Both the position numbers and the translations under genes were made by a program. From IMG/VR virus record IMGVR_UViG_3300042564_000716: 64,000 bases of DNA, one strand, 5' to 3'. The notes under the pieces are model-generated. The model did no database searches. It saw nothing but the letters and a program-made list of their open reading frames with translations, and had not been told where the DNA came from. The DNA is from an uncultured virus (IMG/VR IMGVR_UViG_3300042564_000716) (lineage: Duplodnaviria; Heunggongvirae; Uroviricota; Caudoviricetes). Within the stretch, counting starts at the first letter, position 1. Each line of letters opens with the position of its first letter. Shown here piece by piece: positions 27,706 through 38,333 of this stretch.

Positions 27706-27966
27706 TCAGCACTTCCATCGCGCCAGTGACGCGGCTTTACGAGTGGGCTTGCCCTTCTCGTCTTTCATCGGACCCGGCATACCTGACATGCGTGCGCAGA
27801 ACGAGTCCTTGCGCTTGCCGCCCTGCGGCTGCGGGGCTTTGAGGTTGCTGCCGGTAGCGGCGTTGTATTTGGCACGGCCCTTGGCCGTCAGCCCAGCCCC
27901 CTTGGAGGCAGGCAGCTTCTCGCCACGACCGATTGCAAGGGAGGGGGTCTTCTTAGCCATTGACAA
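27706..27966 (-). CDS. Small basic protein
   Basis: GLTAKGR...RKDSFCARM...SLARWKC. Confidence 0.7.
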   Translation of the reverse strand: MSMAKKTPSLAIGRGEKLPASKGAGLTAKGRAKYNAATGSNLKAPQPQGGKRKDSFCARMSGMPGPMKDEKGKPTRKAASLARWKC

Positions 27967-28702
27967 CTTTCAGTTTGGGTGTGCAGTGCTGCTCGATCAG
28001 CGGCATGAGCACAGCTTCTTTGAAACTGCGGTGGTATTCCTGAGAGCCAACGTGCGGCAGGGTGATCTCTGGGTCGATGAAGACCGTGAAACCGTCCGCC
28101 CGGGCACGCTTGCAGAACGTGTAGTCCTCGCCAACGTACTGCCCATTGGTCAACTCGAAGTCGAACAGGGCGCTCTCGTTGCGGTTGTACACGTCGTTGA
28201 AGTAGGTCCACTCGGGGTGGCCTGCAACCATCTTCTCCAGCACATGGCGCTGGATCATCATGAAGCCTGTGGCCACGTTCTCAACGCGCAGCATGCCGTG
28301 CGGGTCAAACTCAAGCGTGTTGGCCTCGTCGATGTAGATGTCCAAGAAGAACTTGCGGTCCTCGGCTCTGCGGGTGTACATCCCGGCTGTGATGTCCTTG
28401 CCAGTGCTCAGCGCCAGCAGGCGAAGAACAGACTCTGCGTCCACCACGATGTCGGCATCGACGAACAACATGTCCGTGCAGTCCGACTCCAAGAAGTTGG
28501 CGACCAAAATGTTTCTGGCCTTGGTGATCAAAGAGCAGCCCGACAGATGCGACAGTTGAACTTGGACACCAAACTCCAAAGCCTTGACCACCAAATCGGC
28601 CAAGGCAAACGAAGTTTTGATGTTCAACTTGCCGTCGTAGGCAGGGATCGCAATCATCAGTTTGCGACCTGCAACAGCAATCGGGCGTGTCTCTTCAGCC
28701 AT
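27953..28702 (-). CDS. GT-A fold glycosyltransferase-like protein
   Basis: IAIPAY, SLITKARN, LFVDAD (DxD), ATGFMMI, GEDYTFC, LPHVG. Confidence 0.75.
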   Translation of the reverse strand: MAEETRPIAVAGRKLMIAIPAYDGKLNIKTSFALADLVVKALEFGVQVQLSHLSGCSLITKARNILVANFLESDCTDMLFVDADIVVDAESVLRLLALSTGKDITAGMYTRRAEDRKFFLDIYIDEANTLEFDPHGMLRVENVATGFMMIQRHVLEKMVAGHPEWTYFNDVYNRNESALFDFELTNGQYVGEDYTFCKRARADGFTVFIDPEITLPHVGSQEYHRSFKEAVLMPLIEQHCTPKLKVVNG

Positions 28703-29174
28703 AGAACACCGTGCAGTGAATACTTGCTGCCAAAAACACGCGAATGCCTTCAGTAGCCAAAATGCCTTCTCCGGGGATGACTAAGTTATACGCCGTAGCG
28801 TTTGAGGCGTCAGCCTGAAGCAACACCTTGTTGTACACAGTCACATTACCGCTTGCTGCGCCGCTGTCTGCCACAGTTACCGTAAAGACGTCGGCGTTTG
28901 TCACAGTCACTTGGTAAGGGTTGTCGGTCAAATCCCAGTCCAAGTACGCCCACTGACCGGTAGACAAACCGTGGTTTGCTGCGGTCACGGTTGCTGTCGT
29001 TGTGGTACGTGTGTACGTACCAGCAATCGAAGTGTTATCAACAAAAGCCGAGTAGCCCGTAGCGCCGCTGAAAGGGAATATCACAGCCCCCTTCAAACGA
29101 GTTCGGTACGGAACCATCAGGCCGGAAACAGCCGCGTGTTGCGACTTAACGTCAAATTGCATTGCCATAATCAA
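28695..29174 (-). CDS. Virion structural protein with FCCH-like insert
   Basis: MQFDVKS...IPGEGIL...TVFYG with a TVTAANHGLSTG insert. Confidence 0.6.
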   Translation of the reverse strand: MIMAMQFDVKSQHAAVSGLMVPYRTRLKGAVIFPFSGATGYSAFVDNTSIAGTYTRTTTTATVTAANHGLSTGQWAYLDWDLTDNPYQVTVTNADVFTVTVADSGAASGNVTVYNKVLLQADASNATAYNLVIPGEGILATEGIRVFLAASIHCTVFYG

Positions 29175-29182
29175 TCTCCTTT

Positions 29183-29203
29183 AAAACAGGGGCCGAGGCC
29201 CCC
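29183..29203 (-). terminator. Rho-independent terminator
   Basis: GC hairpin followed by TGTTTT on the minus strand. Confidence 0.5.
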
Positions 29204-29211
29204 GAGATCAA

Positions 29212-29730
29212 TTAAGCAGTGCGTGTAAACACGTATGCCGTGGCACTGGAGAACATGATTGTAAATCGCGCAAGGCCAGTCGCACCAGCAGCGACTGTCA
29301 AGTCGCCAAAGCTACCAGCCGTGTCGGCGGCGGCAGTAGACAAGATGCCGTTGACAGCGACAGCGATAGTCACAACGTCAGCGCCAGCGGTGTTGTCAAC
29401 GTATAGGTCCATTACGGTGCCACGAGTTGCGCCCAAGGCTGCGCCAAGCAAAGTGCCAGTGGGCAGAGTGATGGTTGTGGCTAGGGCCGAAGTGGAAGTG
29501 ATGTAACCGGTAGCAACCTGTGCTGCCGTGGCAGTAGCAGTGGCGTTGATGGCTGCGGTTGTTGGGTGATTTTGATCAGTGAAGACCAGATTGGTGGTCG
29601 TCAGATTGGTCACACTGGTCGTAGCGCCAAAGGTGGCATCGACGGTAACTGCGCCAGTGGTGGCGCTCACGGAAACAGATTGAAAGCCGTTCTCGGAACG
29701 AACTGGGCCGTTGAAGGTGGTATTAGCCAT
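29212..29730 (-). CDS. Capsid-associated/decoration-type structural protein
   Basis: MANTTFNGPVRSENGF N-terminus, Thr/Ala-rich. Confidence 0.65.
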   Translation of the reverse strand: MANTTFNGPVRSENGFQSVSVSATTGAVTVDATFGATTSVTNLTTTNLVFTDQNHPTTAAINATATATAAQVATGYITSTSALATTITLPTGTLLGAALGATRGTVMDLYVDNTAGADVVTIAVAVNGILSTAAADTAGSFGDLTVAAGATGLARFTIMFSSATAYVFTRTA

Positions 29731-29815
29731 GATGATTCCTCACATGCGAGTTGAGGTGCATCTGTCTGCATGTCGTCGGCCCGGAGCCGTCAGATACACC
29801 GGAAAGTCCGGGGTT
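29731..29815 (-). ncRNA. Candidate structured 5' leader (double pseudoknot)
   Basis: Three interleaved complementary pairs between a promoter and the ribosome-binding site (see findings). Confidence 0.5.
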
Positions 29816-29821
29816 GGTGGC

Positions 29822-29850
29822 AATATATCAGGTGGGGGTGGGGGCGTCAA
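29822..29850 (-). promoter_or_regulatory. Sigma70-like promoter TTGACG-17-TATATT
   Basis: Consensus match; overlaps the last codons of the GIY-YIG gene. Confidence 0.6.
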
Positions 29851-30646
29851 CGTGTTTACGTGACTCCGTGAAAGTTTTTCTGCCCTCTTCGGTCTGCCAA
29901 AACTCCTTCATCTGCTTGCGCTTTGATTCAGCGCGTTGCTCGGCACCACAGGCAGGACAACCACGCCCCTTGCGGAACTGTGCCGCGTACTGCGAAAACG
30001 TGCCGTGCTGCTCACAGAACACCCCCTCAATACGCACCAGAGCGCCGGTATAGACGGCATTGCTGAAGTCGTACTTGGCCTGAACGTCGGCGGGAAACTT
30101 AGCATGGACAGCTTCAAAGTCGGCTGGCACTTGCGGCTTGGCGTTGCGCTTCATGTTCTCACGGGCTCGCTTCAGTCCTTCAGGGGTGAAGGTGCGCGGG
30201 GCTTTGGCTACGCCGCGCTGGGCAGCACCGATCTTTTCGCGCACCTCGGGGGAAACCTCTTGCCCGAAACGATAGTGCTCTGAGCCTGCATGCTTGCCCT
30301 TTCTGTTGGCGCTCAATTGGTCTTTGCTTGCTTGCGTGTGCGGGATGCCTGTGCGCATACCAATAGCATCTGTGTTGATGTTGTAGCACTCAGGCTTCCC
30401 GACATGAATGTGTAGGTACGTGTTCTCTGCGGCAAACGCCGTTTTTTCTGCGGCAACATGTTCAAGAATCTCGAACACAAACGCTTCAGGTCCGTACTTG
30501 TTCCAAGCCGCCTGCAAGCGAGGGTTCTTGTGTGCGTTGCGCTTGAGGTCGTTTTTGTGCTGCCACTGACGACGCTCAAAAGATTCGGCGCTCCCAATGT
30601 AGTACTTGCCGTTGACCATGTTGGTAATCTGGTAGATGACTGCCAT
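29828..30646 (-). CDS. Free-standing GIY-YIG homing endonuclease with NUMOD3-like repeats and C-terminal Zn-finger
   Basis: VIYQITN...YYIGS...R..QH, E and YN motifs; HTQASKDQLS and SPEVREKIG; CEQHG.F...GRGCPAC. Confidence 0.9.
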   Translation of the reverse strand: MAVIYQITNMVNGKYYIGSAESFERRQWQHKNDLKRNAHKNPRLQAAWNKYGPEAFVFEILEHVAAEKTAFAAENTYLHIHVGKPECYNINTDAIGMRTGIPHTQASKDQLSANRKGKHAGSEHYRFGQEVSPEVREKIGAAQRGVAKAPRTFTPEGLKRARENMKRNAKPQVPADFEAVHAKFPADVQAKYDFSNAVYTGALVRIEGVFCEQHGTFSQYAAQFRKGRGCPACGAEQRAESKRKQMKEFWQTEEGRKTFTESRKHVDAPTPT

Positions 30647-30678
30647 TTCGATGTCCTGTATAAAGATAGAGAGTAGTC

Positions 30679-30706
30679 AGTGTACCATATGTGCGGTATA
30701 AATCAA
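30679..30706 (-). promoter_or_regulatory. Sigma70-like promoter for the endonuclease (TTGATT-16-TACACT, extended TG)
   Basis: Immediately downstream of the capsid terminator. Confidence 0.5.
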
Positions 30707-30714
30707 CAGGCAAG

Positions 30715-30740
30715 AAAAAAGGCCCCGAAGGGCCTTTTTT
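30715..30740. terminator. Bidirectional rho-independent terminator after the major capsid gene
   Basis: AAAAAA-GGCCC-CGAA-GGGCC-TTTTTT. Confidence 0.85.
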
Positions 30741-30753
30741 AGATACTTGGGTA

Positions 30754-31662
30754 TCAAGCTCCGGGGGAGCCGTACACACCAAGTGGATCGCTAACACCAA
30801 AAGAATAGCGCTCGCGTGCCTTGTATCTCACGTTCCCAGTGTCAAAATCGCCATCCATTGAATTCGCCAAAGGCGAACGGACGAAGTGCTTCAGACCGTT
30901 AGGCACGTCAGTCAACAGGAACCAAGCGTTGGTGTCGGTCAAGAAGTTGTTGATCGTGTAACCACCGGGGATGGAGCCGTTGTTCTTGATGGCGTTGATA
31001 TCGTTGTCAGCAGTGCCAACGCGGAGTTCAGTTTCCAGCAAGCGAGTTGCAACGAATTGCAGTGCAGGTGGAACCACCAATTTCTTGGGCTTGGCTGCGA
31101 TCAGCAGGCCGCGTTCGTCTGTCCAAGCAGCGATCTGAATGACGGCGTTTTCCAACGAAGTCTCGTTCAGGTCGGCAGGAGTAGCCGGACGGTTGCTGTT
31201 GACGCCACCAGAGATCAAGGGGTGTGCAGTCGAGAACAAGGTAACGCCGTCGCCGTAAGTTACGCCAGCGGTGAAACCAGTGTTCAAGATAGCAGCAGCT
31301 TTGACCTGCTTGGTGTACGACATACCACGGGCCAGAGCTTTGGTGTATCGGCTGGACAAGCTGTCATACAGGTTGTCTTCGATAGCTTCTTCAGTGATGG
31401 AGAAGCCCAAAGCGATGGTTTCGTGGGTGTAGCGAGCAGTGAAAGCTTCCTGCGCATTGTCATAAGCAATGGCAGCGCCTTCGTTCTTCACCGGAGCGGC
31501 GGAGAAGCCAGACAGCTTGGTTTCTTCTTCAAAGCTACGCTCCGATGTCTCGGTTTCGTAGATTTCTTTGTGCTGCTCGCCGTAACGGGCGTACTCAAGG
31601 CCGAACAAAGCGTTCAAGCCGGGGAGCAGTTCTTTCAGCAGTTGTGCGCGTGAAATAGCCAT
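30754..31662 (-). CDS. Major capsid protein
   Basis: MAISRAQLLKELLPGLNALFG...KARERYSFG; follows scaffold and decoration genes; strong codon bias; own terminator. Confidence 0.9.
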   Translation of the reverse strand: MAISRAQLLKELLPGLNALFGLEYARYGEQHKEIYETETSERSFEEETKLSGFSAAPVKNEGAAIAYDNAQEAFTARYTHETIALGFSITEEAIEDNLYDSLSSRYTKALARGMSYTKQVKAAAILNTGFTAGVTYGDGVTLFSTAHPLISGGVNSNRPATPADLNETSLENAVIQIAAWTDERGLLIAAKPKKLVVPPALQFVATRLLETELRVGTADNDINAIKNNGSIPGGYTINNFLTDTNAWFLLTDVPNGLKHFVRSPLANSMDGDFDTGNVRYKARERYSFGVSDPLGVYGSPGA

Positions 31663-31672
31663 GATTTACTCC

Positions 31673-32269
31673 TTAGACACCAGTGGTGTTGTTGTACTGG
31701 TGCGTGTTGATTTTCACCAACAGCTCGGTGTATGTGTCAGCAGCAGTAGCTGTCTCAGGCACAACGTCGATCACACGGATTGGGATGGTGGCGGTAGTGC
31801 CAGCGCCAGTCAAAGTGACGGCGAAAGCAGAATTACCGGTGGTGGTGTTACCAGCGTTCAGAACGAGCGCGAGGTTGGTACCAACAACAGTACGGCCAGC
31901 GGTGCCCATGGTAGTGCCAGAGGTCACAACAGCGACCTTGAACAGAGCCATCGGGTCATCCACAACGTAGGCGTAAGCCAGATTGGTGGACGTAGATGCC
32001 AGAGCGGGGATGAACTGACCTTGAATGGTTTGACCACTCGAGTTCACGTACTGACCGCCCATGCACACGCCAACAATGTTGCCAGAGTCAGTTGTGGTGG
32101 ATTTAACGAGATAGCCGTCACTGTTGATCACAACGGTATCGCCATCAAAAATGGCGGTGCCGAAGCCAGCAGCTACGGGAATCTGACGGATTGCACCTGC
32201 GTACGGCATGCCATCAATACGATTGATTGGTTGCAGACCGTAGGGTGCCGAAACGGTGGGGTAAGCCAT
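31673..32269 (-). CDS. Capsid decoration/cement-like protein
   Basis: PYGLQP...IFDGD.V...VVDDP; directly upstream of the capsid gene. Confidence 0.65.
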   Translation of the reverse strand: MAYPTVSAPYGLQPINRIDGMPYAGAIRQIPVAAGFGTAIFDGDTVVINSDGYLVKSTTTDSGNIVGVCMGGQYVNSSGQTIQGQFIPALASTSTNLAYAYVVDDPMALFKVAVVTSGTTMGTAGRTVVGTNLALVLNAGNTTTGNSAFAVTLTGAGTTATIPIRVIDVVPETATAADTYTELLVKINTHQYNNTTGV

Positions 32270-34296: not shown

Positions 34297-36807
34297 TTAG
34301 TTCTCCGGCGGTTCAGCAGCCGGTCTATTTGCAAGTTCCATCAGCTTGGTCTGCATCTTTATAGATGCCTCCCGCTGCTTCTGGGCCATTTTTTGATCGA
34401 ACTCCTGCTGGCGCTGCGCCATCTCCTGCTCGTGCACTTGACGCTCTATGGCCAACTCTTGCTGCGCTCTGGCGGCGGCAATGTCTGGGTCTTCGCCTTG
34501 GCGGTTCGCAGCTTCCTGAACCTTGAGCTGCAGCTCCTGACCCTTGAGGGCCAACTCGCCCTGCACTTTTTGCTCTTTGATTGCGGAATCTTTCATCTTG
34601 ATCTGCAGCTCTTGCTGCTGCATCTGCACGATCGGGTCTTGCGCCTGCTGCTGGGCTTGCTGCTGAGCGGCTTCGCCTTGATGAATCTGCGTGAGCTGCT
34701 TCGCTGCTTGCGCGACCAGCTTGGCCAACTGAACCTCGACCTGCTCGGGCAGCTCTGCGTTGGGTGCAGGCAGCGACGCGCCAAGGCGCTCTTCGATCTG
34801 GTTGCGGTACTGGAACGCGACGTGCTCCGCAACGTGCGCCATGACGGCGGCTTGCATCTGCTGCGCCATGGGGTTCTGCCCCATCTGTCCCATGACCATC
34901 GGGTCCTGCGTCATGGACATGTGCACCGCAATGTGGGCGTCGTGGTCTTGGTAGATGAACGCCTTGGTGGGCTTGCCAGTCAAGAACGCCATGTTCTCGC
35001 TGACCGGATCGCGCGGCTTCATGTCTTCGTCGATCGGCACCAGCTTGTCAGCGTTCTTGATCCCCAGCACTTCCAGCATCTGGCGGTGCAACTGCGGCAA
35101 GTCGTAAATCTGCGGCGCGCCTTGAGCCAACTGAATCGCGGCTTGGTACTGCATGATCCGCTGGGCCATGGTCGAGCTGTTGGGGTCCGACACGGGGATA
35201 ACCTCCACCATGTCGTAGTCTTCCCGCTTGGCCTTGGGGTTGCCGCCGTTGGGCACGTACTCGTAGTCGCCCGGGGTGTTGTCGCGGATGATGGCCTTGA
35301 GGAGCTTGAACTCCTCTTTCATCGAGTAGTGCACACGAGCCTGCACGGCCGACATCGTTTTGAGCTGGCGCTCAAGGATGGCCAGTGTGGTACCCACGGG
35401 CGCGTTGGCGCTCATGTCGCTGACCTTCATGTCGGCCACAGAGCCGAGGCGGCGGGCTTCGTCCGTGATCTGCGCAAGCAGCGCCATCAGAACTTGGCTT
35501 GGCTCTTTGTATGGCAGGGGCATGATGCTGTCGCGCACCGTGCCGCTGGTCACGTCTACGTCGCGGAACTCGCCGGGTGCGATCGGAGTGTCGTCGCCCT
35601 TGATCCGCAGACCGCGCGACTTCAAGCCGCCGGGCAAGTTGGACAGCGTGCCAGCATCTACCAACTGGCGGATGATGGAGGTACCTGCGCGCGCGTAGCC
35701 CCCGATGATGTGGATCAGGCCGAGACCATACACCCCGAAGCCGGGCACGTAGGTGTACTGCACGAAGTGCTGGCGCTTAAGTTTGAGCTTGTCGTCCTCG
35801 TTCCAGTTACGGCGGATGGCCAGCACTTTGGTCGTGCTGCGGTCGATCGTGATGACGTACGGCAGTGCGATGCCGTCCTCGTCTTCGTAGCCGGGCAGGT
35901 CGTAGTCAACGCACATCTCGAGCAACTGATACCGGTTGTCGTCACTGAGGGTAAACCCTTGGTCTTCTGCTTTGCGCTTCTCGATATCAGAGTGAAACGT
36001 AAGGGGGTCCCCCAAGTCGACGTCCTTGTAAAAGCCCGCGACCTGCAGCTTCTTGACGTCGTTTTTGGTTTTACGCATGACGTGGGTCACACGCTCTGCG
36101 GTGCGCGCGCTGGACGCGCCGTACGGAATGATGATGTCTTCGGCCGGGATAAACACTGCGGCCTGCCGCCCCAAGCTGGGGTCGAAATACACCTTCTTGA
36201 ACGCGGCACCGGCCAGCCCCAAGTTGTACAACATGCGCTCGTGCTCAGGGCGGTACTCCGGCATTTCTTCCGTGAGCTTGAAGTTCATGTCGGTGCGCAC
36301 GCGCTCGGCAGCTTCTTCCTTCAACTTATCTATGGCCCCGATGATTTCCGTCTTGACGGGCCCCTGTGATGGGAACGTCTCGATGATCGTCTCAGATTGA
36401 AACCTGATGGCCGCTTCGGTCAACACCGTGGAGTACACCCCGCACGCGCCAGTCCAAGGCTCGGTGCGCTCTTCATACTTCATGCCCAGAACTTCGAGGC
36501 CCTTGACGTACATGTCCGCCCACTCTTTGCGGGACGCAATGTCAGAGTCGTACTCTCCCAGCAGGTCACTGGCCAGTGTGCCCAGCTCCCCGTCGTCCAT
36601 GAACTCGGCCAAGTTGGCATCGAAGTCCTCGTCCGTTTCGTCCTCCGGCATCAAGTCGATGGTCAGGCCGTCGACGCCAATCTGCACGCCCTCGGGGTCC
36701 TCAATCATGATCTCTATGTCCGGGGTGTCGTCTGGGGTAATGCCTGAGAGCGCGTCCAAACCCAACGGGGCCGGAGTGAGCGAAGAGGTCATGCTGTTTG
36801 CTGCCAT
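34297..36807 (-). CDS. Portal protein
   Basis: 836 aa directly after terminase; FKKVYFD, GVYGLGL, RQLVDAGTL; Gln-rich C-terminal coil. Confidence 0.9.
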   Translation of the reverse strand: MAANSMTSSLTPAPLGLDALSGITPDDTPDIEIMIEDPEGVQIGVDGLTIDLMPEDETDEDFDANLAEFMDDGELGTLASDLLGEYDSDIASRKEWADMYVKGLEVLGMKYEERTEPWTGACGVYSTVLTEAAIRFQSETIIETFPSQGPVKTEIIGAIDKLKEEAAERVRTDMNFKLTEEMPEYRPEHERMLYNLGLAGAAFKKVYFDPSLGRQAAVFIPAEDIIIPYGASSARTAERVTHVMRKTKNDVKKLQVAGFYKDVDLGDPLTFHSDIEKRKAEDQGFTLSDDNRYQLLEMCVDYDLPGYEDEDGIALPYVITIDRSTTKVLAIRRNWNEDDKLKLKRQHFVQYTYVPGFGVYGLGLIHIIGGYARAGTSIIRQLVDAGTLSNLPGGLKSRGLRIKGDDTPIAPGEFRDVDVTSGTVRDSIMPLPYKEPSQVLMALLAQITDEARRLGSVADMKVSDMSANAPVGTTLAILERQLKTMSAVQARVHYSMKEEFKLLKAIIRDNTPGDYEYVPNGGNPKAKREDYDMVEVIPVSDPNSSTMAQRIMQYQAAIQLAQGAPQIYDLPQLHRQMLEVLGIKNADKLVPIDEDMKPRDPVSENMAFLTGKPTKAFIYQDHDAHIAVHMSMTQDPMVMGQMGQNPMAQQMQAAVMAHVAEHVAFQYRNQIEERLGASLPAPNAELPEQVEVQLAKLVAQAAKQLTQIHQGEAAQQQAQQQAQDPIVQMQQQELQIKMKDSAIKEQKVQGELALKGQELQLKVQEAANRQGEDPDIAAARAQQELAIERQVHEQEMAQRQQEFDQKMAQKQREASIKMQTKLMELANRPAAEPPEN

Positions 36808-36815
36808 GGTAAATC

Positions 36816-38333
36816 CTAATAATATGCAGCCCGGCGGGCCCGCTGGAAGCCGTCATTATCCTCGTGGTCGGTGCTCAGGCGCAACAGGCCACCTTTTCGC
36901 ACGCGCATCAAGGCCAAAGTCATCGTGTCCACCTCGTCGTCGTGCTCACCGGCCGGGAACGCCAAAATCTCCTCGACGGCCTTGGCCGCCCACGCTGTCT
37001 CGGGGAACCAGACGTGGCCGGAGGCGAACATGTCGGCCACCGCGTTGAGCCGCGCAATCTTGTCTTGGCCCTTGCCCGGGCTGAAGTCCTGCACAAATAT
37101 GCCCGACCTTCGCATCTCGTCGATCAGCGGCTGGCCGCTGGCCTTGGCTTCCACAATCACGGAGTCCGGCTGCCAGTCCGCGTACTGCTCGTGGGCCATC
37201 GCCTTGAGCTCTGGGAACTCGTACTTGCCCTTGACAGAGTTGAGCAGGATGACGTTCTGGGTGTTGTCGACCTCGTTGAACCACACGCCCCACGTATGGC
37301 ACACCGAATAGTCCGAGCGCTGCTTGGTCGTGAGCGCCGTGTCGAACGCCTGCACAAGAAACTCGCACTCTGGCGGCTCGTCGCCGGTCCACCACTTGAT
37401 CCAGTCACGCTTGATGATCGCAGCTTCGGCAGCGGTGGGGTTTTGCTGGTACTGGGCATACCACTGCCACATGATGTGGTGCATCGACGCCCGGGTTTGT
37501 TGCAGGGATTCGATCGTCCACTGCTCTGGCCAGATGGATTTCTCGTTCTCGGTGCCTTCGTTCAGGATGGCCGGGAACTCAAACGCTTCGTAGTTGTCTC
37601 CGCCCTCATTCATGGCAGAGTCTTTGAGCAGTCGACCGATCAGGTCCCGCTGGTGCCAGCGCGTGTGGAGCACGCAAATCTTCCCATCCGGCATCAGACG
37701 CGTTCGCAGACCAGCGCTGAACCACTCGTAGGCGTTATCCAGTGAGTTGGTGTTTCCTGCCTTGATGTCCTGCTCAGACAGCGGGTCGTCGGCAATGATG
37801 AGGTGTGCACCCCGTCCGGCCAGCGCGCCGCCCACACCGATCGCAAAATACTCGCCCCCGTCAGTGGTGTTCCACTGGGCAGCGGCCTTGGCGTCCGAGG
37901 CAATCTTGGTTTTGGGGAAAATGCGCGCGTACTCGGCCGACTGGATCAGGTTACGCACCTTGCGCGCCATGACGATCGCCAAATCTGCAGTGTGTGATGC
38001 CACAATCACCTTGTGGTCCGGGTGACGGCCGAGGTACCACGCCGGGTAGTAGATCGAGATCATCTGGGACTTGCCCATACGCGGTGCCATAGACACGGCA
38101 ATCCGGTTTTTGATGTTCTGCTCAACGTCCATGAGGAGGTGGCCCAGCCGTTTGAGGTGGATGCCGAACTTGTAGGTCTTGTCGATGGCCGCAATGAACG
38201 CCAAGAAGTCGTCTTGGGCTGCAGCGATCGTTTTGCGCTCCTCCAACTCGTCAAACATGGCCAAAAGCTCGGCAGCCTCCTCCCGGGGCATGTTCTTGAC
38301 CAGCTTTTCGATGATTTGGGGCGTCAATTCCAT
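36816..38333 (-). CDS. terL: Terminase large subunit
   Basis: Walker A MAPRMGKS, LIIADDP, TRWH..DL, AFDTA, EAKASG, HDDEVD. Confidence 0.95.
   Translation of the reverse strand: MELTPQIIEKLVKNMPREEAAELLAMFDELEERKTIAAAQDDFLAFIAAIDKTYKFGIHLKRLGHLLMDVEQNIKNRIAVSMAPRMGKSQMISIYYPAWYLGRHPDHKVIVASHTADLAIVMARKVRNLIQSAEYARIFPKTKIASDAKAAAQWNTTDGGEYFAIGVGGALAGRGAHLIIADDPLSEQDIKAGNTNSLDNAYEWFSAGLRTRLMPDGKICVLHTRWHQRDLIGRLLKDSAMNEGGDNYEAFEFPAILNEGTENEKSIWPEQWTIESLQQTRASMHHIMWQWYAQYQQNPTAAEAAIIKRDWIKWWTGDEPPECEFLVQAFDTALTTKQRSDYSVCHTWGVWFNEVDNTQNVILLNSVKGKYEFPELKAMAHEQYADWQPDSVIVEAKASGQPLIDEMRRSGIFVQDFSPGKGQDKIARLNAVADMFASGHVWFPETAWAAKAVEEILAFPAGEHDDEVDTMTLALMRVRKGGLLRLSTDHEDNDGFQRARRAAYY

What the first reader, a model, noticed from the sequence alone, without database searches (positions are those of the whole stretch)
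29731..29815. Compact double-pseudoknot leader abutting the RBS of the post-capsid structural operon
Seen on the minus strand, starting right after promoter TTGACG-17-TATATT: CCCGGA (a, 29812-07), GGTGTATCTG (b, 29800-791), TCCGGG (a', 29785-80), ACATGC (c, 29773-68), CAGATGCACC (b', 29764-55), GCATGT (c', 29747-42), then GAGGA and the ATG. The order a-b-a'-c-b'-c' gives two interlocked pseudoknots. An alternative CCTCA/TGAGG pair would sequester the Shine-Dalgarno sequence. Inference: a riboswitch-like or protein-binding translational switch, for example coupling decoration-protein synthesis to capsid assembly, or a small ribozyme.
Basis: partly seen in the sequence, partly recalled or inferred. 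Interest (0 to 1): 0.75.

Follow-up and report, generated by a model that had tools for sequence, protein, structure and literature searches.

The report
Conserved knotted RNA leader in phages
The short stretch in front of a phage capsid-accessory gene encodes a real, widely conserved RNA that folds into a compact three-armed knot pressed against the ribosome-binding site, a fold matching no catalogued RNA family and found in some of the most abundant phages of lakes and oceans.

Summary
All six segments sit at the stated coordinates.

The window sequence alone proves nothing: nested folding gives z = -0.91. Comparison with relatives is decisive.
- A structure-blind alignment of 64 homologous leaders pairs 87.0% of cells, against 26.5-40.6% when partners are slid. 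23 of 24 pairs change on both sides, and 0 of 500 shuffles reach this.
- On 100 rows the figure is 89.7%, with 24 of 25 pairs changing on both sides.

With them the fold is a three-way junction:
- b closes the element.
- Hairpin d presents a' as its loop, and hairpin f presents c as its loop.
- Three near-invariant single adenines link the arms.
- The 5' tail (a) and the 3' tail (c') each capture one loop.

A promoter-like -10 box ends 5-11 nt before a. Segment c' overlaps or abuts the Shine-Dalgarno sequence in 77 of 99 leaders. The element always lies between the major capsid gene and the 'cement/minor capsid' gene, in freshwater relatives and in marine HTVC023P-type pelagiphages.

Rfam has no match. 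Function is inferred, not shown. I think it is most likely a cis-acting gate on translation that also buries the mRNA 5' end. A homing endonuclease was inserted just upstream in this window.

The parts
30712..30740 (-). Intrinsic terminator after the major capsid gene: GGCCC-TTC-GGGGCC, then a T-run.
   Evidence: Read directly. Homologous in the insertion-free relatives L003 and L004. The consensus scan did not list it.
29828..30710 (-). Inserted cassette of about 0.88 kb carrying a GIY-YIG homing endonuclease (ORF 29828-30646). It is absent from the closest relatives. Its last bases supply the -35 box.
   Evidence: Pfam GIY-YIG E = 1.6e-08 and PHROG homing endonuclease E = 1.7e-27. Junctions were mapped against L003 and L004, whose capsid protein is 97% identical.
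29822..29850 (-). Promoter-like site TTGACG-17-TATATT. The -10 box (29827-29822) is native; the -35 box (29850-29845) comes from the inserted cassette.
   Evidence: 10 of 12 consensus matches, TG before the -10. In all 68 leaders examined, a -10 with at most 2 mismatches ends 5-11 nt before a. A -35 with at most 1 mismatch occurs in 13 of 22 loci with an insertion and in 0 of 46 without.
29807..29812 (-). a: the 5' tail strand of pseudoknot 1. It pairs with a'.
   Evidence: Helix a/a' is 84.4% paired on MAFFT alignment A1, 94.1% on A2 and 92.0% on A4. All 5 pairs change on both sides.
29791..29800 (-). b 5' strand: the closing stem of the three-way junction.
   Evidence: 52 distinct b/b' types among 66 leaders. 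All pairs change on both sides: 10 of 10 on A1 and 9 of 9 on A4.
29777..29790 (-). Junction adenine A29790, then hairpin d (29789-29787 paired with 29779-29777). Its loop, 29786-29780, contains a' (29785-29780).
   Evidence: Helix d is 97.9% paired and 98.7% paired. Its middle pair is UA 57, AU 25, GC 11, CG 7. A36, C37 and G49 are invariant in 99 of 99 rows.
29766..29776 (-). Junction adenine A29776, then minimal hairpin f (C29775-G29766 plus the weak pair 29774/29767). Its 6-nt loop is c (29773-29768).
   Evidence: C-G in 99 rows and U-A in 1 of 100 rows. The second pair is a standard pair in 39 of 100 rows (UA 26, GC 10, AU 3). This is the weakest helix.
29755..29765 (-). Junction adenine A29765, then the b 3' strand (29764-29755).
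   Evidence: A61 is invariant in 99 of 99 rows.
29742..29747 (-). c': the 3' tail strand of pseudoknot 2. It pairs with loop c.
   Evidence: Helix c/c' is 85.8%, 86.2% and 82.4% paired. All 6 pairs change on both sides. 26 distinct types among 66 leaders.
29728..29741 (-). Shine-Dalgarno GAGGA (29741-29737), a 6-nt spacer, and the ATG (29730-29728) of the downstream gene.
   Evidence: The end of c' overlaps the Shine-Dalgarno core in 43 of 99 leaders and lies 0-1 nt from it in 34 of 99.
29212..29730 (-). Downstream gene (172 aa). Its positional counterparts are annotated 'cement protein' and 'minor capsid protein'. The N-terminus MA.TTF.GPV is conserved and the rest is hypervariable.
   Evidence: Annotations in relatives. 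The alignment of 55 such proteins has 22% mean column identity. No Pfam or PDB match. The AlphaFold model is unusable, pLDDT 40.
30754..31662 (-). Major capsid protein gene, the upstream anchor of the locus.
   Evidence: Pfam Phage_capsid_4 E = 4.4e-16. PHROG major head protein.

Best explanation
The region encodes the 5' leader, about 85 nt long, of the mRNA for the capsid 'cement/minor capsid' gene and the structural genes behind it.

Transcription appears to start a few bases before segment a, from a promoter that overlaps the capsid-gene terminator. This is inferred from a conserved -10 box at a fixed distance.

The RNA folds into a three-way junction. Stem b closes it. Hairpins d and f carry 6-7-nt loops, and single near-invariant adenines link the three arms. 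The 5' tail (a) pairs with the loop of d. The stretch just before, or overlapping, the Shine-Dalgarno sequence (c') pairs with the loop of f. Both ends of the element are therefore tied back onto its core. This fold is shown by covariation.

My preferred reading of its function is inferred, not shown. It is a cis-acting post-transcriptional control element. The 3' pseudoknot holds the ribosome-binding site against or inside a rigid fold. How firmly the knot is folded would then set how often ribosomes start on the cement gene. An unknown factor recognising the invariant junction may lock the fold, and I judge a protein more likely than a small molecule. The 5' pseudoknot buries the transcript's 5' end, which should slow decay that depends on a free 5' end.

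Roughly: the structure is real, 0.97; its main job is control of translation and/or stability in cis, 0.75; specifically a gate on translation, 0.5.
For: Structure:
- Structure-blind MAFFT alignment of 64 leaders: 87.0% of cells paired against 26.5-40.6% for slid partners; 305 compensatory cells against 29-69; 23 of 24 pairs change on both sides; 0 of 500 shuffles reach these values.
- On an alignment fitted only to b and d, the unfitted helices a/a' and c/c' pair at 94.1% and 86.2%.
- On 100 rows spanning freshwater and marine clades: 89.7% paired and 708 compensatory cells.
- The junction bases A36, C37, G49, A50, C51, G60 and A61 are conserved in 96-99 of 99 rows.

Context:
- Covariance models hit once per locus, always in gene orientation between the capsid gene and the cement gene. 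The counts are 68 leader hits (plus 1 weak second hit in L075) in the window plus 82 loci, and 54 of 80 marine loci.
- The window's 64 kb has a single hit, 76.9 bits, E = 1.6e-15.
- A search anchored only on the junction pattern gave 72 model hits in 80 loci. Of the 71 full-length hits, 69 have a capsid gene upstream on the same strand and 69 end on an ATG that opens an MA.TTF.GPV protein.

Link to translation:
- c' overlaps the Shine-Dalgarno core in 43 of 99 leaders and lies 0-1 nt away in 34 of 99.
- In several classes c is a literal anti-Shine-Dalgarno sequence: CCTCA pairing with TGAGG, or CCTAG pairing with CTAGG of CTAGGAGG.

Link to the 5' end:
- A -10 box with at most 2 mismatches ends 5-11 nt before a in 68 of 68 leaders.
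- Inserted cassettes bring a near-consensus -35 in 13 of 22 loci, against 0 of 46 loci without an insertion. A promoter is therefore kept at this spot.

Strand: 68 G.U cells against 38 A.C cells, which favours the sense strand.
Against: - No experiment and no usable RNA 5'-end data bear on function.
- The metatranscriptome contigs do not reach the predicted start. They stop at 29789-29791.
- In 22 of 99 leaders c' ends 2-9 nt before the Shine-Dalgarno core, so occlusion is not universal.
- No candidate binding factor was identified.
- The alternative pairings that a switch would need are only weakly supported: a with a nearby CCGG pairs in 72.8% of cells, and the anti-Shine-Dalgarno helix in 61.9%.
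- Near-invariant junction adenines would equally suit a purely architectural knot, a ligand pocket or an active site.
- The relatedness of the sequences inflates the shuffle-based statistics. The slid-partner controls do not have this flaw.
Confidence: 0.5

Rival explanations
1. A purely protective knot. The fold acts as a mechanical or 5'-end-hiding block against 5'-end-dependent decay (RppH with RNase E, or the 5'-to-3' exonuclease RNase J), in the manner of flavivirus exonuclease-resistant RNAs. Its nearness to the Shine-Dalgarno sequence only reflects tight packing.
For: The strand order a, b5', d, a', d', f, c, f', b3', c' gives a three-way junction, a 5'-end pairing, and a loop-to-3'-tail pseudoknot. 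Passages of PMC5760640 describe the same ingredients for xrRNAs, and report that an xrRNA stops bacterial RNase J1. Segment a sits at the predicted 5' end.
Against: - In xrRNAs the 5' end pairs with 2 junction nucleotides. Here a 5-7-bp helix forms with a hairpin loop.
- c' overlaps or touches the Shine-Dalgarno sequence in 77 of 99 leaders, and is a literal anti-Shine-Dalgarno partner in some classes. Mere packing does not explain this.
- Whether the hosts have RNase J was not examined.
Confidence: 0.2
2. A small-molecule or ion riboswitch. The invariant junction forms a ligand pocket, and ligand binding stabilises the 3' pseudoknot and hides the Shine-Dalgarno sequence.
For: The element is compact, with 7 near-invariant junction bases among freely varying helices. 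A pseudoknot strand overlaps the Shine-Dalgarno sequence. From memory, this is the layout of pseudoknot-type translational riboswitches.
Against: - The regulated gene is a capsid accessory protein, always the same gene, with no link to metabolism.
- A junction with three single-nucleotide linkers leaves little room for a pocket.
- No Rfam riboswitch family matches, even at E up to 10.
Confidence: 0.1
3. A cis-acting RNA that modifies RNA polymerase for processive antitermination, like the put RNAs of phage HK022. It would carry transcription through the long structural operon.
For: The element lies immediately after a promoter, at the head of about 24 kb of same-strand structural genes. The put comparison is recalled from memory and was not tested.
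Against: The consistent contact with the Shine-Dalgarno sequence has no role in this model. No downstream terminators that would need bypassing were identified.
Confidence: 0.07
4. [quoted passage not shown] This comparison is from memory. Three RNA contigs from two runs end at 29789-29791, exactly at the junction.
Against: - Those ends lie 30 nt (k-1 for 31-letter words) from a variable site near 29759 (table 4). That is what a branch in the assembly graph would give.
- No known ribozyme family matches.
- A promoter directly upstream leaves little to cut off.
Confidence: 0.05
5. Not an RNA structure at all. It would be a DNA-level feature (homing-endonuclease target, promoter or terminator remnants) or chance complementarity among palindromic words such as CCGG and CATG.
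For: The site is an insertion hotspot. Segments a and c contain palindromic cores in the window. The single-sequence statistics are unremarkable.
Against: - Five helices keep pairing through 15, 52, 6 and 26 distinct sequence types for a, b, d and c.
- The element extends to phages whose capsid proteins are only about 40% identical.
- Insertions land upstream of the element and leave it intact.
Confidence: 0.02

Closest known systems
S4-binding leader of the E. coli alpha (rpsM) operon, and the S15-binding rpsO leader
   Same: Both are 5'-UTR pseudoknots that touch the translation start. Passages of PMC3616713 call the S4 site 'a complex double pseudoknot' that represses translation by trapping the ribosome. 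This is the nearest known way of working for a double pseudoknot set against a ribosome-binding site.
   Different: - No match to any Rfam family in the region. PMC3616713 gives the S4 and S15 leaders as RF00140 and RF00114.
- The topology differs: a three-way junction with two tail-to-loop helices.
- The gene is a phage structural gene, not a ribosomal-protein operon.
- The binding factor, if there is one, is unknown.
Flavivirus exoribonuclease-resistant RNAs (xrRNAs)
   Same: A three-way junction, pairing of the 5' end back into the core, and a pseudoknot between a hairpin loop and the 3' flank (PMC5760640 passages). The order of strands is nearly the same.
   Different: - The 5' pairing here is 5-7 bp with a hairpin loop, not 2 bp with the junction.
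- The conserved bases are different.
- It lies in the 5' leader of a DNA phage mRNA beside a Shine-Dalgarno sequence, not in a 3' UTR.
- Ring formation and nuclease resistance were not tested.
Phage T4 gene 32 leader pseudoknot
   Same: A phage mRNA leader pseudoknot used by a phage protein to control its own translation. This is stated in a passage of PMC10690425.
   Different: From memory, that element is a simple hairpin-type pseudoknot well upstream of the start, followed by an unstructured binding tract. Here the fold is a double pseudoknot touching the Shine-Dalgarno sequence, and no regulator is known.
Pseudoknot-type translational riboswitches (preQ1-II, SAM-II and the like; recalled from memory)
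   Same: The 3' strand of a pseudoknot overlaps the Shine-Dalgarno sequence, so folding controls ribosome access.
   Different: No Rfam match. No metabolic gene context. The core architecture is different.
Unnamed candidate structured RNAs of the IMG/VR catalogue (PMC10690425)
   Same: That study mined the same collection (IMG/VR) for covarying intergenic structures. It lists 879 candidates lying within 25 bases upstream of genes with assigned domains.
   Different: I could not check whether a nested part of this motif is among its 8,495 entries. The two zip archives (mmc4, mmc5) could not be searched, and the readable files held none of six core strings. The main text I read describes no such element.

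Membership tests
Any Rfam 15 family (4227 models), including riboswitches, ribozymes and ribosomal-protein leaders | A covariance-model match at or near the family's gathering score. | tested here: not met
   - Window 29000-30500 at E up to 10: one unrelated weak hit at 30191-30245.
- Window 29700-29860: two hits at E = 9.
- HTVC023P locus L083 3400-3650: all 23 hits score 11.5-29.3 bits against gathering scores of 41 or more, and most centre on the terminator just upstream of the leader.
Flavivirus-type xrRNA | Three-way junction. | tested here: met
   Stems b and d covary. Stem f has one near-invariant C-G pair (one U-A exception) plus a partly covarying second pair.
Flavivirus-type xrRNA | The 5' end pairs with nucleotides of the junction. 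| tested here: not met
   The 5' tail pairs with the loop of hairpin d (5-7 bp), not with the junction. The feature is as described in PMC5760640.
Flavivirus-type xrRNA | A pseudoknot between a hairpin loop and the 3' flank. | tested here: met
   c (the loop of f) pairs with c'. 82-86% of cells are paired and all 6 pairs change on both sides.
Flavivirus-type xrRNA | A ring around the 5' end, and a halt of 5'-to-3' exonucleases. | not testable with these tools
   This needs a 3D structure and nuclease assays.
Autogenous translational operator (S4, S15 or T4 gp32 type) | A structured element overlapping or touching the ribosome-binding site. | tested here: met
   c' overlaps the Shine-Dalgarno core in 43 of 99 leaders and lies 0-1 nt away in 34 of 99.
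Autogenous translational operator (S4, S15 or T4 gp32 type) | A specific protein binds the RNA and represses translation. | not testable with these tools
   No candidate was identified. The downstream protein gave no family, no PDB match and no usable model.
Small self-cleaving ribozymes | Site-specific self-cleavage. | tested here: inconclusive
   RNA contigs from 2 runs end at 29789-29791. This lies 30 nt from a variable site, as an assembly branch would. No ribozyme family matches.
Sigma-70-type promoter directly upstream | -35 and -10 hexamers 16-18 nt apart, conserved in relatives. | tested here: met
   Window: TTGACG-17-TATATT, 10 of 12 matches. A -10 is present in 68 of 68 leaders. A good -35 is present only in loci with an insertion, 13 of 22. 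Actual initiation was not shown.

The most novel reading that the evidence does not exclude
This is a new class of functional RNA fold: a three-way junction whose two loops are captured by its own 5' and 3' tails. It acts either as the first exonuclease-resistant, xrRNA-like knot found in a bacteriophage mRNA, or as a factor-sensing switch that ties synthesis of a capsid cement protein to the state of the infected cell or of capsid assembly. It is carried by the most abundant known group of marine pelagiphages and by their lake relatives.
Probability: 0.25. Interest if true: 0.85.

Novelty: new variant of a known kind. Interest (0 to 1): 0.72.

Why it matters
- **A new, unusually well-supported RNA fold.** Few new RNA motifs come with this much covariation in so small an element. 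Five helices are supported across more than 170 sequences, and the junction is near-invariant.
- **It is very common in nature.** It sits in HTVC023P-type phages. [quoted passage not shown] This is probably one of the commonest structured viral RNAs in surface waters, yet no Rfam family describes it.
- **It can be tested.** Two carriers, HTVC023P and HTVC027P, are cultured, so the function is open to experiment.
- **Possible general lessons.** If it gates translation, it would show how a tailed phage tunes a high-copy capsid accessory protein after transcription. If it protects the 5' end, it would extend knot-like nuclease blocks from RNA viruses of animals to DNA phages.
- **A design template.** The compact, pseudo-symmetric fold is also an attractive object for RNA structure work and for engineered mRNA leaders.

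Tried and rejected
- **Nested folding of the window sequence.** z = -0.91, uninformative.
- **Rfam.** Three scans, nothing.
- **Earlier notes of this scan.** Nothing by place or by sequence.
- **My own topology descriptor.** Too permissive: 126 hits in shuffled DNA against 253 in real DNA. I used it only to read variants by eye.
- **Alternative hairpin a/a''** (a with a CCGG 3-5 nt downstream) **and anti-Shine-Dalgarno helix e.** 72.8% and 61.9% paired, with little change on both sides. They are features of subfamilies at most and are not part of the core model.
- **Metatranscriptome contigs** (4 RNA runs).
  - They cover the capsid gene and, separately, 29577-29791.
  - Three contigs from two runs end at 29789-29791, and none bridges further 5'.
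  - I considered self-cleavage or a processing site.
  - I rejected this as evidence because the ends lie k-1 = 30 nt from a variable position near 29759.
  - Contigs cannot show RNA ends. The parts without cover say nothing.
- **Identity of the downstream protein.** No Pfam family, no PDB sequence match, and an AlphaFold model at pLDDT 40. No fold search was run, because a poor model gives meaningless matches. The name 'cement/minor capsid' rests on annotations in relatives.
- **More distant relatives.**
  - Pag-Yong1 (L001), Roseobacter phage CRP-902 (L085) and locus L050 gave no model hit.
  - L050 shows all helices by eye and in the descriptor.
  - In one search I read an a-b-a'-c-b'-c' arrangement into L001, but it lacks hairpin d and the junction motifs, so I do not count it.
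  - CRP-902 remains unclear.
- **The window's own assembly.** Not held, so no genome-wide search was run.
- **The IMG/VR candidate-RNA catalogue.** The archives with alignments could not be read.

Full report
**What the window is.** The window is a phage genome. On the minus strand run, in order:
- large terminase, 36816-38333
- portal, 34297-36807
- a GroES-like gene
- the major capsid protein, 30754-31662 (Pfam Phage_capsid_4, E = 4.4e-16)
- a GIY-YIG homing endonuclease, 29828-30646
- a 172-aa gene, 29212-29730
- adaptor and tail genes.

The nearest named relatives by capsid DNA are Synechococcus phage MinM2, Planktothrix phages Pag-Yong1 and Pra-JY27, lake phage DSL-LC04, and the Pelagibacter phages HTVC023P and HTVC027P. 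In DSL-LC04 and Pag-Yong1 the capsid gene is followed, after 104-131 nt, by a gene annotated 'cement protein' or 'minor capsid protein'. DNA runs that hold the stretch are lake-water metagenomes.

**The observation.** The promoter-like TTGACG-17-TATATT is the only such site in 28600-31000, though about one is expected by chance. The single sequence carries no statistical weight. Nested folding gives z = -0.91. A permissive descriptor of the topology is found 126 times in shuffled DNA.

**Comparative test.**
- *Collecting leaders.* The capsid protein retrieved 80 IMG/VR loci, out of more than 600. In 63 loci (61 of these 80, plus L001 and L002) I located the downstream gene by its N-terminus. 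With the window, that gave 64 leaders, all different in sequence.
- *Structure-blind test.* MAFFT knows nothing of structure. There are 305 compensatory cells against 29-69. 23 of 24 pairs change on both sides, and no shuffle of 500 reaches the observed values.
- *Test on unfitted helices.* I built a covariance model using only b and d (R1). On the alignment it produced, the two pseudoknot helices were not fitted. They still pair at 94.1% (a/a') and 86.2% (c/c'), and all 11 pairs change on both sides.
- *Wider set.* On 100 rows covering both clades the whole structure pairs at 89.7% against 25.1-40.1%, with 708 compensatory cells.
- *Diversity.* Among 66 parsed leaders there are 15 a/a' types, 52 b/b' types, 6 d types and 26 c/c' types.
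- *Caveat.* Related sequences inflate the shuffle control. The slid controls and the counts of pairs do not suffer from this.

**Refined anatomy.**
- a' is the loop of a 3-bp hairpin d. Its closing C-G pair is invariant, and its middle pair is UA 57, AU 25, GC 11, CG 7.
- c is the loop of a minimal hairpin f. One pair is C-G in 99 of 100 rows and U-A in 1. The second pair is a standard pair in 39 of 100 rows. f is the weakest helix.
- With closing stem b, this makes a three-way junction whose three linkers are single adenines. A36, A50 and A61 are conserved in 99, 96 and 99 of 99 rows. C37, G49, C51 and G60 are conserved in 98-99.
- The 5' tail pairs with one loop and the 3' tail with the other, so the element is pseudo-symmetric.
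- In window coordinates:
  - a 29812-29807
  - b 29800-29791
  - A 29790
  - d 29789-29787 with 29779-29777
  - a' 29785-29780
  - A 29776
  - f 29775 with 29766
  - c 29773-29768
  - A 29765
  - b' 29764-29755
  - c' 29747-29742

**Distribution and context.**
- R1 hits once per locus, in gene orientation, just before the downstream gene. There were 68 leader hits in the window plus 82 loci, plus one weak second hit in L075 (E = 0.32) that I take for noise. The 64-kb window has a single hit, 76.9 bits.
- HTVC023P scores 59.8 bits.
- A second model with b, d and f (R2) finds the element in 54 of 80 loci retrieved with the HTVC023P capsid protein. It also finds it in HTVC027P (E = 2.7e-07) and phage 023Pt_psg01 (E = 0.0019).
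- It gives no hit in Pag-Yong1, CRP-902 or L050. Several of the loci without a hit end soon after the capsid gene.
- A search that does not use the capsid gene, anchored only on the junction word pattern, gave 80 loci with 72 model hits. Of the 71 full-length hits:
  - 69 have a capsid gene upstream on the same strand. The other two have under 320 nt of upstream DNA.
  - 69 end on an ATG opening a protein that starts MA.TTF.GPV.
  - Capsid identity to the queries falls to about 40%.
- The RNA is therefore tied to this one gene junction across a broad phage lineage.

**Relation to transcription.**
- A -10-like hexamer with at most 2 mismatches ends 5-11 nt (mode 8-9) before a in 68 of 68 leaders. 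A start 6-8 nt after the -10 box would put a within a few bases of the 5' end.
- In loci without an insertion, the -35 region falls in the capsid-gene terminator and is poor: 0 of 46 have at most 1 mismatch.
- In 22 loci a gene has been inserted between terminator and leader, and 13 of these carry TTGACA or a one-off variant at the right spacing.
- In the window the inserted segment is about 29828-30710. The -10 box TATATT is native, and the -35 box TTGACG lies in the last codons of the endonuclease gene.
- A promoter is thus preserved here whatever is inserted. This is indirect evidence that initiation at this spot matters. Actual initiation was not shown.

**Relation to translation.**
- Across 99 leaders the 3' end of c' overlaps the Shine-Dalgarno core in 43, lies 0-1 nt from it in 34, 2-5 nt in 20, and 8-9 nt in 2. 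The spacing from Shine-Dalgarno to ATG is a normal 5-11 nt.
- In five freshwater leaders c is CCTCA and c' is the TGAGG of the Shine-Dalgarno sequence itself. In the main marine class c is CCTAG and c' is the CTAGG of CTAGGAGG.

**What it most likely does.**
- *Shown:* the fold, its position, and its linkage to one gene junction.
- *Inferred:* it acts in cis on the mRNA. I favour a gate on translation initiation, with burial of the 5' end as a second role.
  - The pseudoknot strand is welded to the ribosome-binding site in most members.
  - The closest working analogues are the S4 and S15 leaders, pseudoknots at the start site that trap the ribosome (PMC3616713, passages).
- The near-invariant junction suggests a recognition site for a factor. 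I could not identify one.
- The topology also resembles flavivirus xrRNAs: a three-way junction, 5'-end pairing, and a loop-to-3'-tail pseudoknot. An xrRNA stops bacterial RNase J1 (PMC5760640, passages). A protective-knot reading is therefore a serious rival.
- Riboswitch, antitermination and ribozyme readings are less likely, for the reasons given under rivals.
- RNA contigs from lake metatranscriptomes cover the leader's 3' half and end at 29789-29791 in two runs. This is best explained by an assembly branch, and I draw nothing from it.

**Novelty.**
- No Rfam 15 family matches.
- No paper in the held library contains both 'pelagiphage' and 'pseudoknot'.
- In searches on double pseudoknots in phage leaders and on exonuclease-resistant RNAs in phages, no listed title or abstract describes such an element.
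- A 2023 catalogue of 8,495 unnamed candidate structured RNAs from IMG/VR (PMC10690425; passages read) may contain a nested part of it. Its alignment archives could not be opened here. The readable files lacked six core strings.
- I therefore call it a new variant of a known kind: a pseudoknotted cis-acting leader with a fold not described before.

Noticed in passing
window 29828-30710 (minus strand): A free-standing GIY-YIG homing endonuclease cassette is inserted between the capsid-gene terminator and the leader. The closest relatives, L003 and L004 (capsid protein 97% identical), lack it. The cassette's 3' end supplies a -35 box for the downstream promoter.
   Followed up: yes
loci L003-L082, between the capsid gene stop and the leader: This junction is an insertion hotspot: 22 of 68 leaders have 0.45-1.15 kb inserted. 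In 23 inserted or truncated loci, the largest ORF is a GIY-YIG endonuclease in 5 (plus 1 weak match), a methyltransferase in 1, and without a Pfam match in 16. Ten of those 16 belong to a roughly 200-aa family with the motif KTRKEA...YFTG.PC.
   Followed up: partly
L083 3460-3500 (HTVC023P) and L087: Terminator and promoter overlap. A -35-like TTCACA sits in the loop of the capsid-gene terminator hairpin, 17 nt before TATAAT.
   Followed up: partly
window 29212-29730 and its homologues: The downstream 'cement' protein keeps only its first dozen or so residues (MA.TTF.GPV.S). The rest is hypervariable: mean column identity is 22% over 55 sequences, and lengths run from about 130 to 250 aa.
   Followed up: partly
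window 29801-29812 and about 45 of 66 relatives: In one large subfamily, a second copy of the a' word (for example CCGG) lies 3-5 nt after a and overlaps the first two bases of b. It changes together with a (CCGAG/TCGG, CCAGG/CCTGG, CTGGG/CCAG). This could be a competing 5' hairpin used during folding.
   Followed up: partly
window 30785-31700: RNA-library contigs from four lake and freshwater metatranscriptome runs cover the capsid gene of this phage or close relatives. DNA carried over into these libraries cannot be excluded.
   Followed up: no
window 27706-27966 and 27953-28702 (minus strand): A DUF6321 protein (E = 7.3e-23) and a protein with weak glycosyltransferase-like PHROG matches sit among the structural genes.
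   Followed up: no
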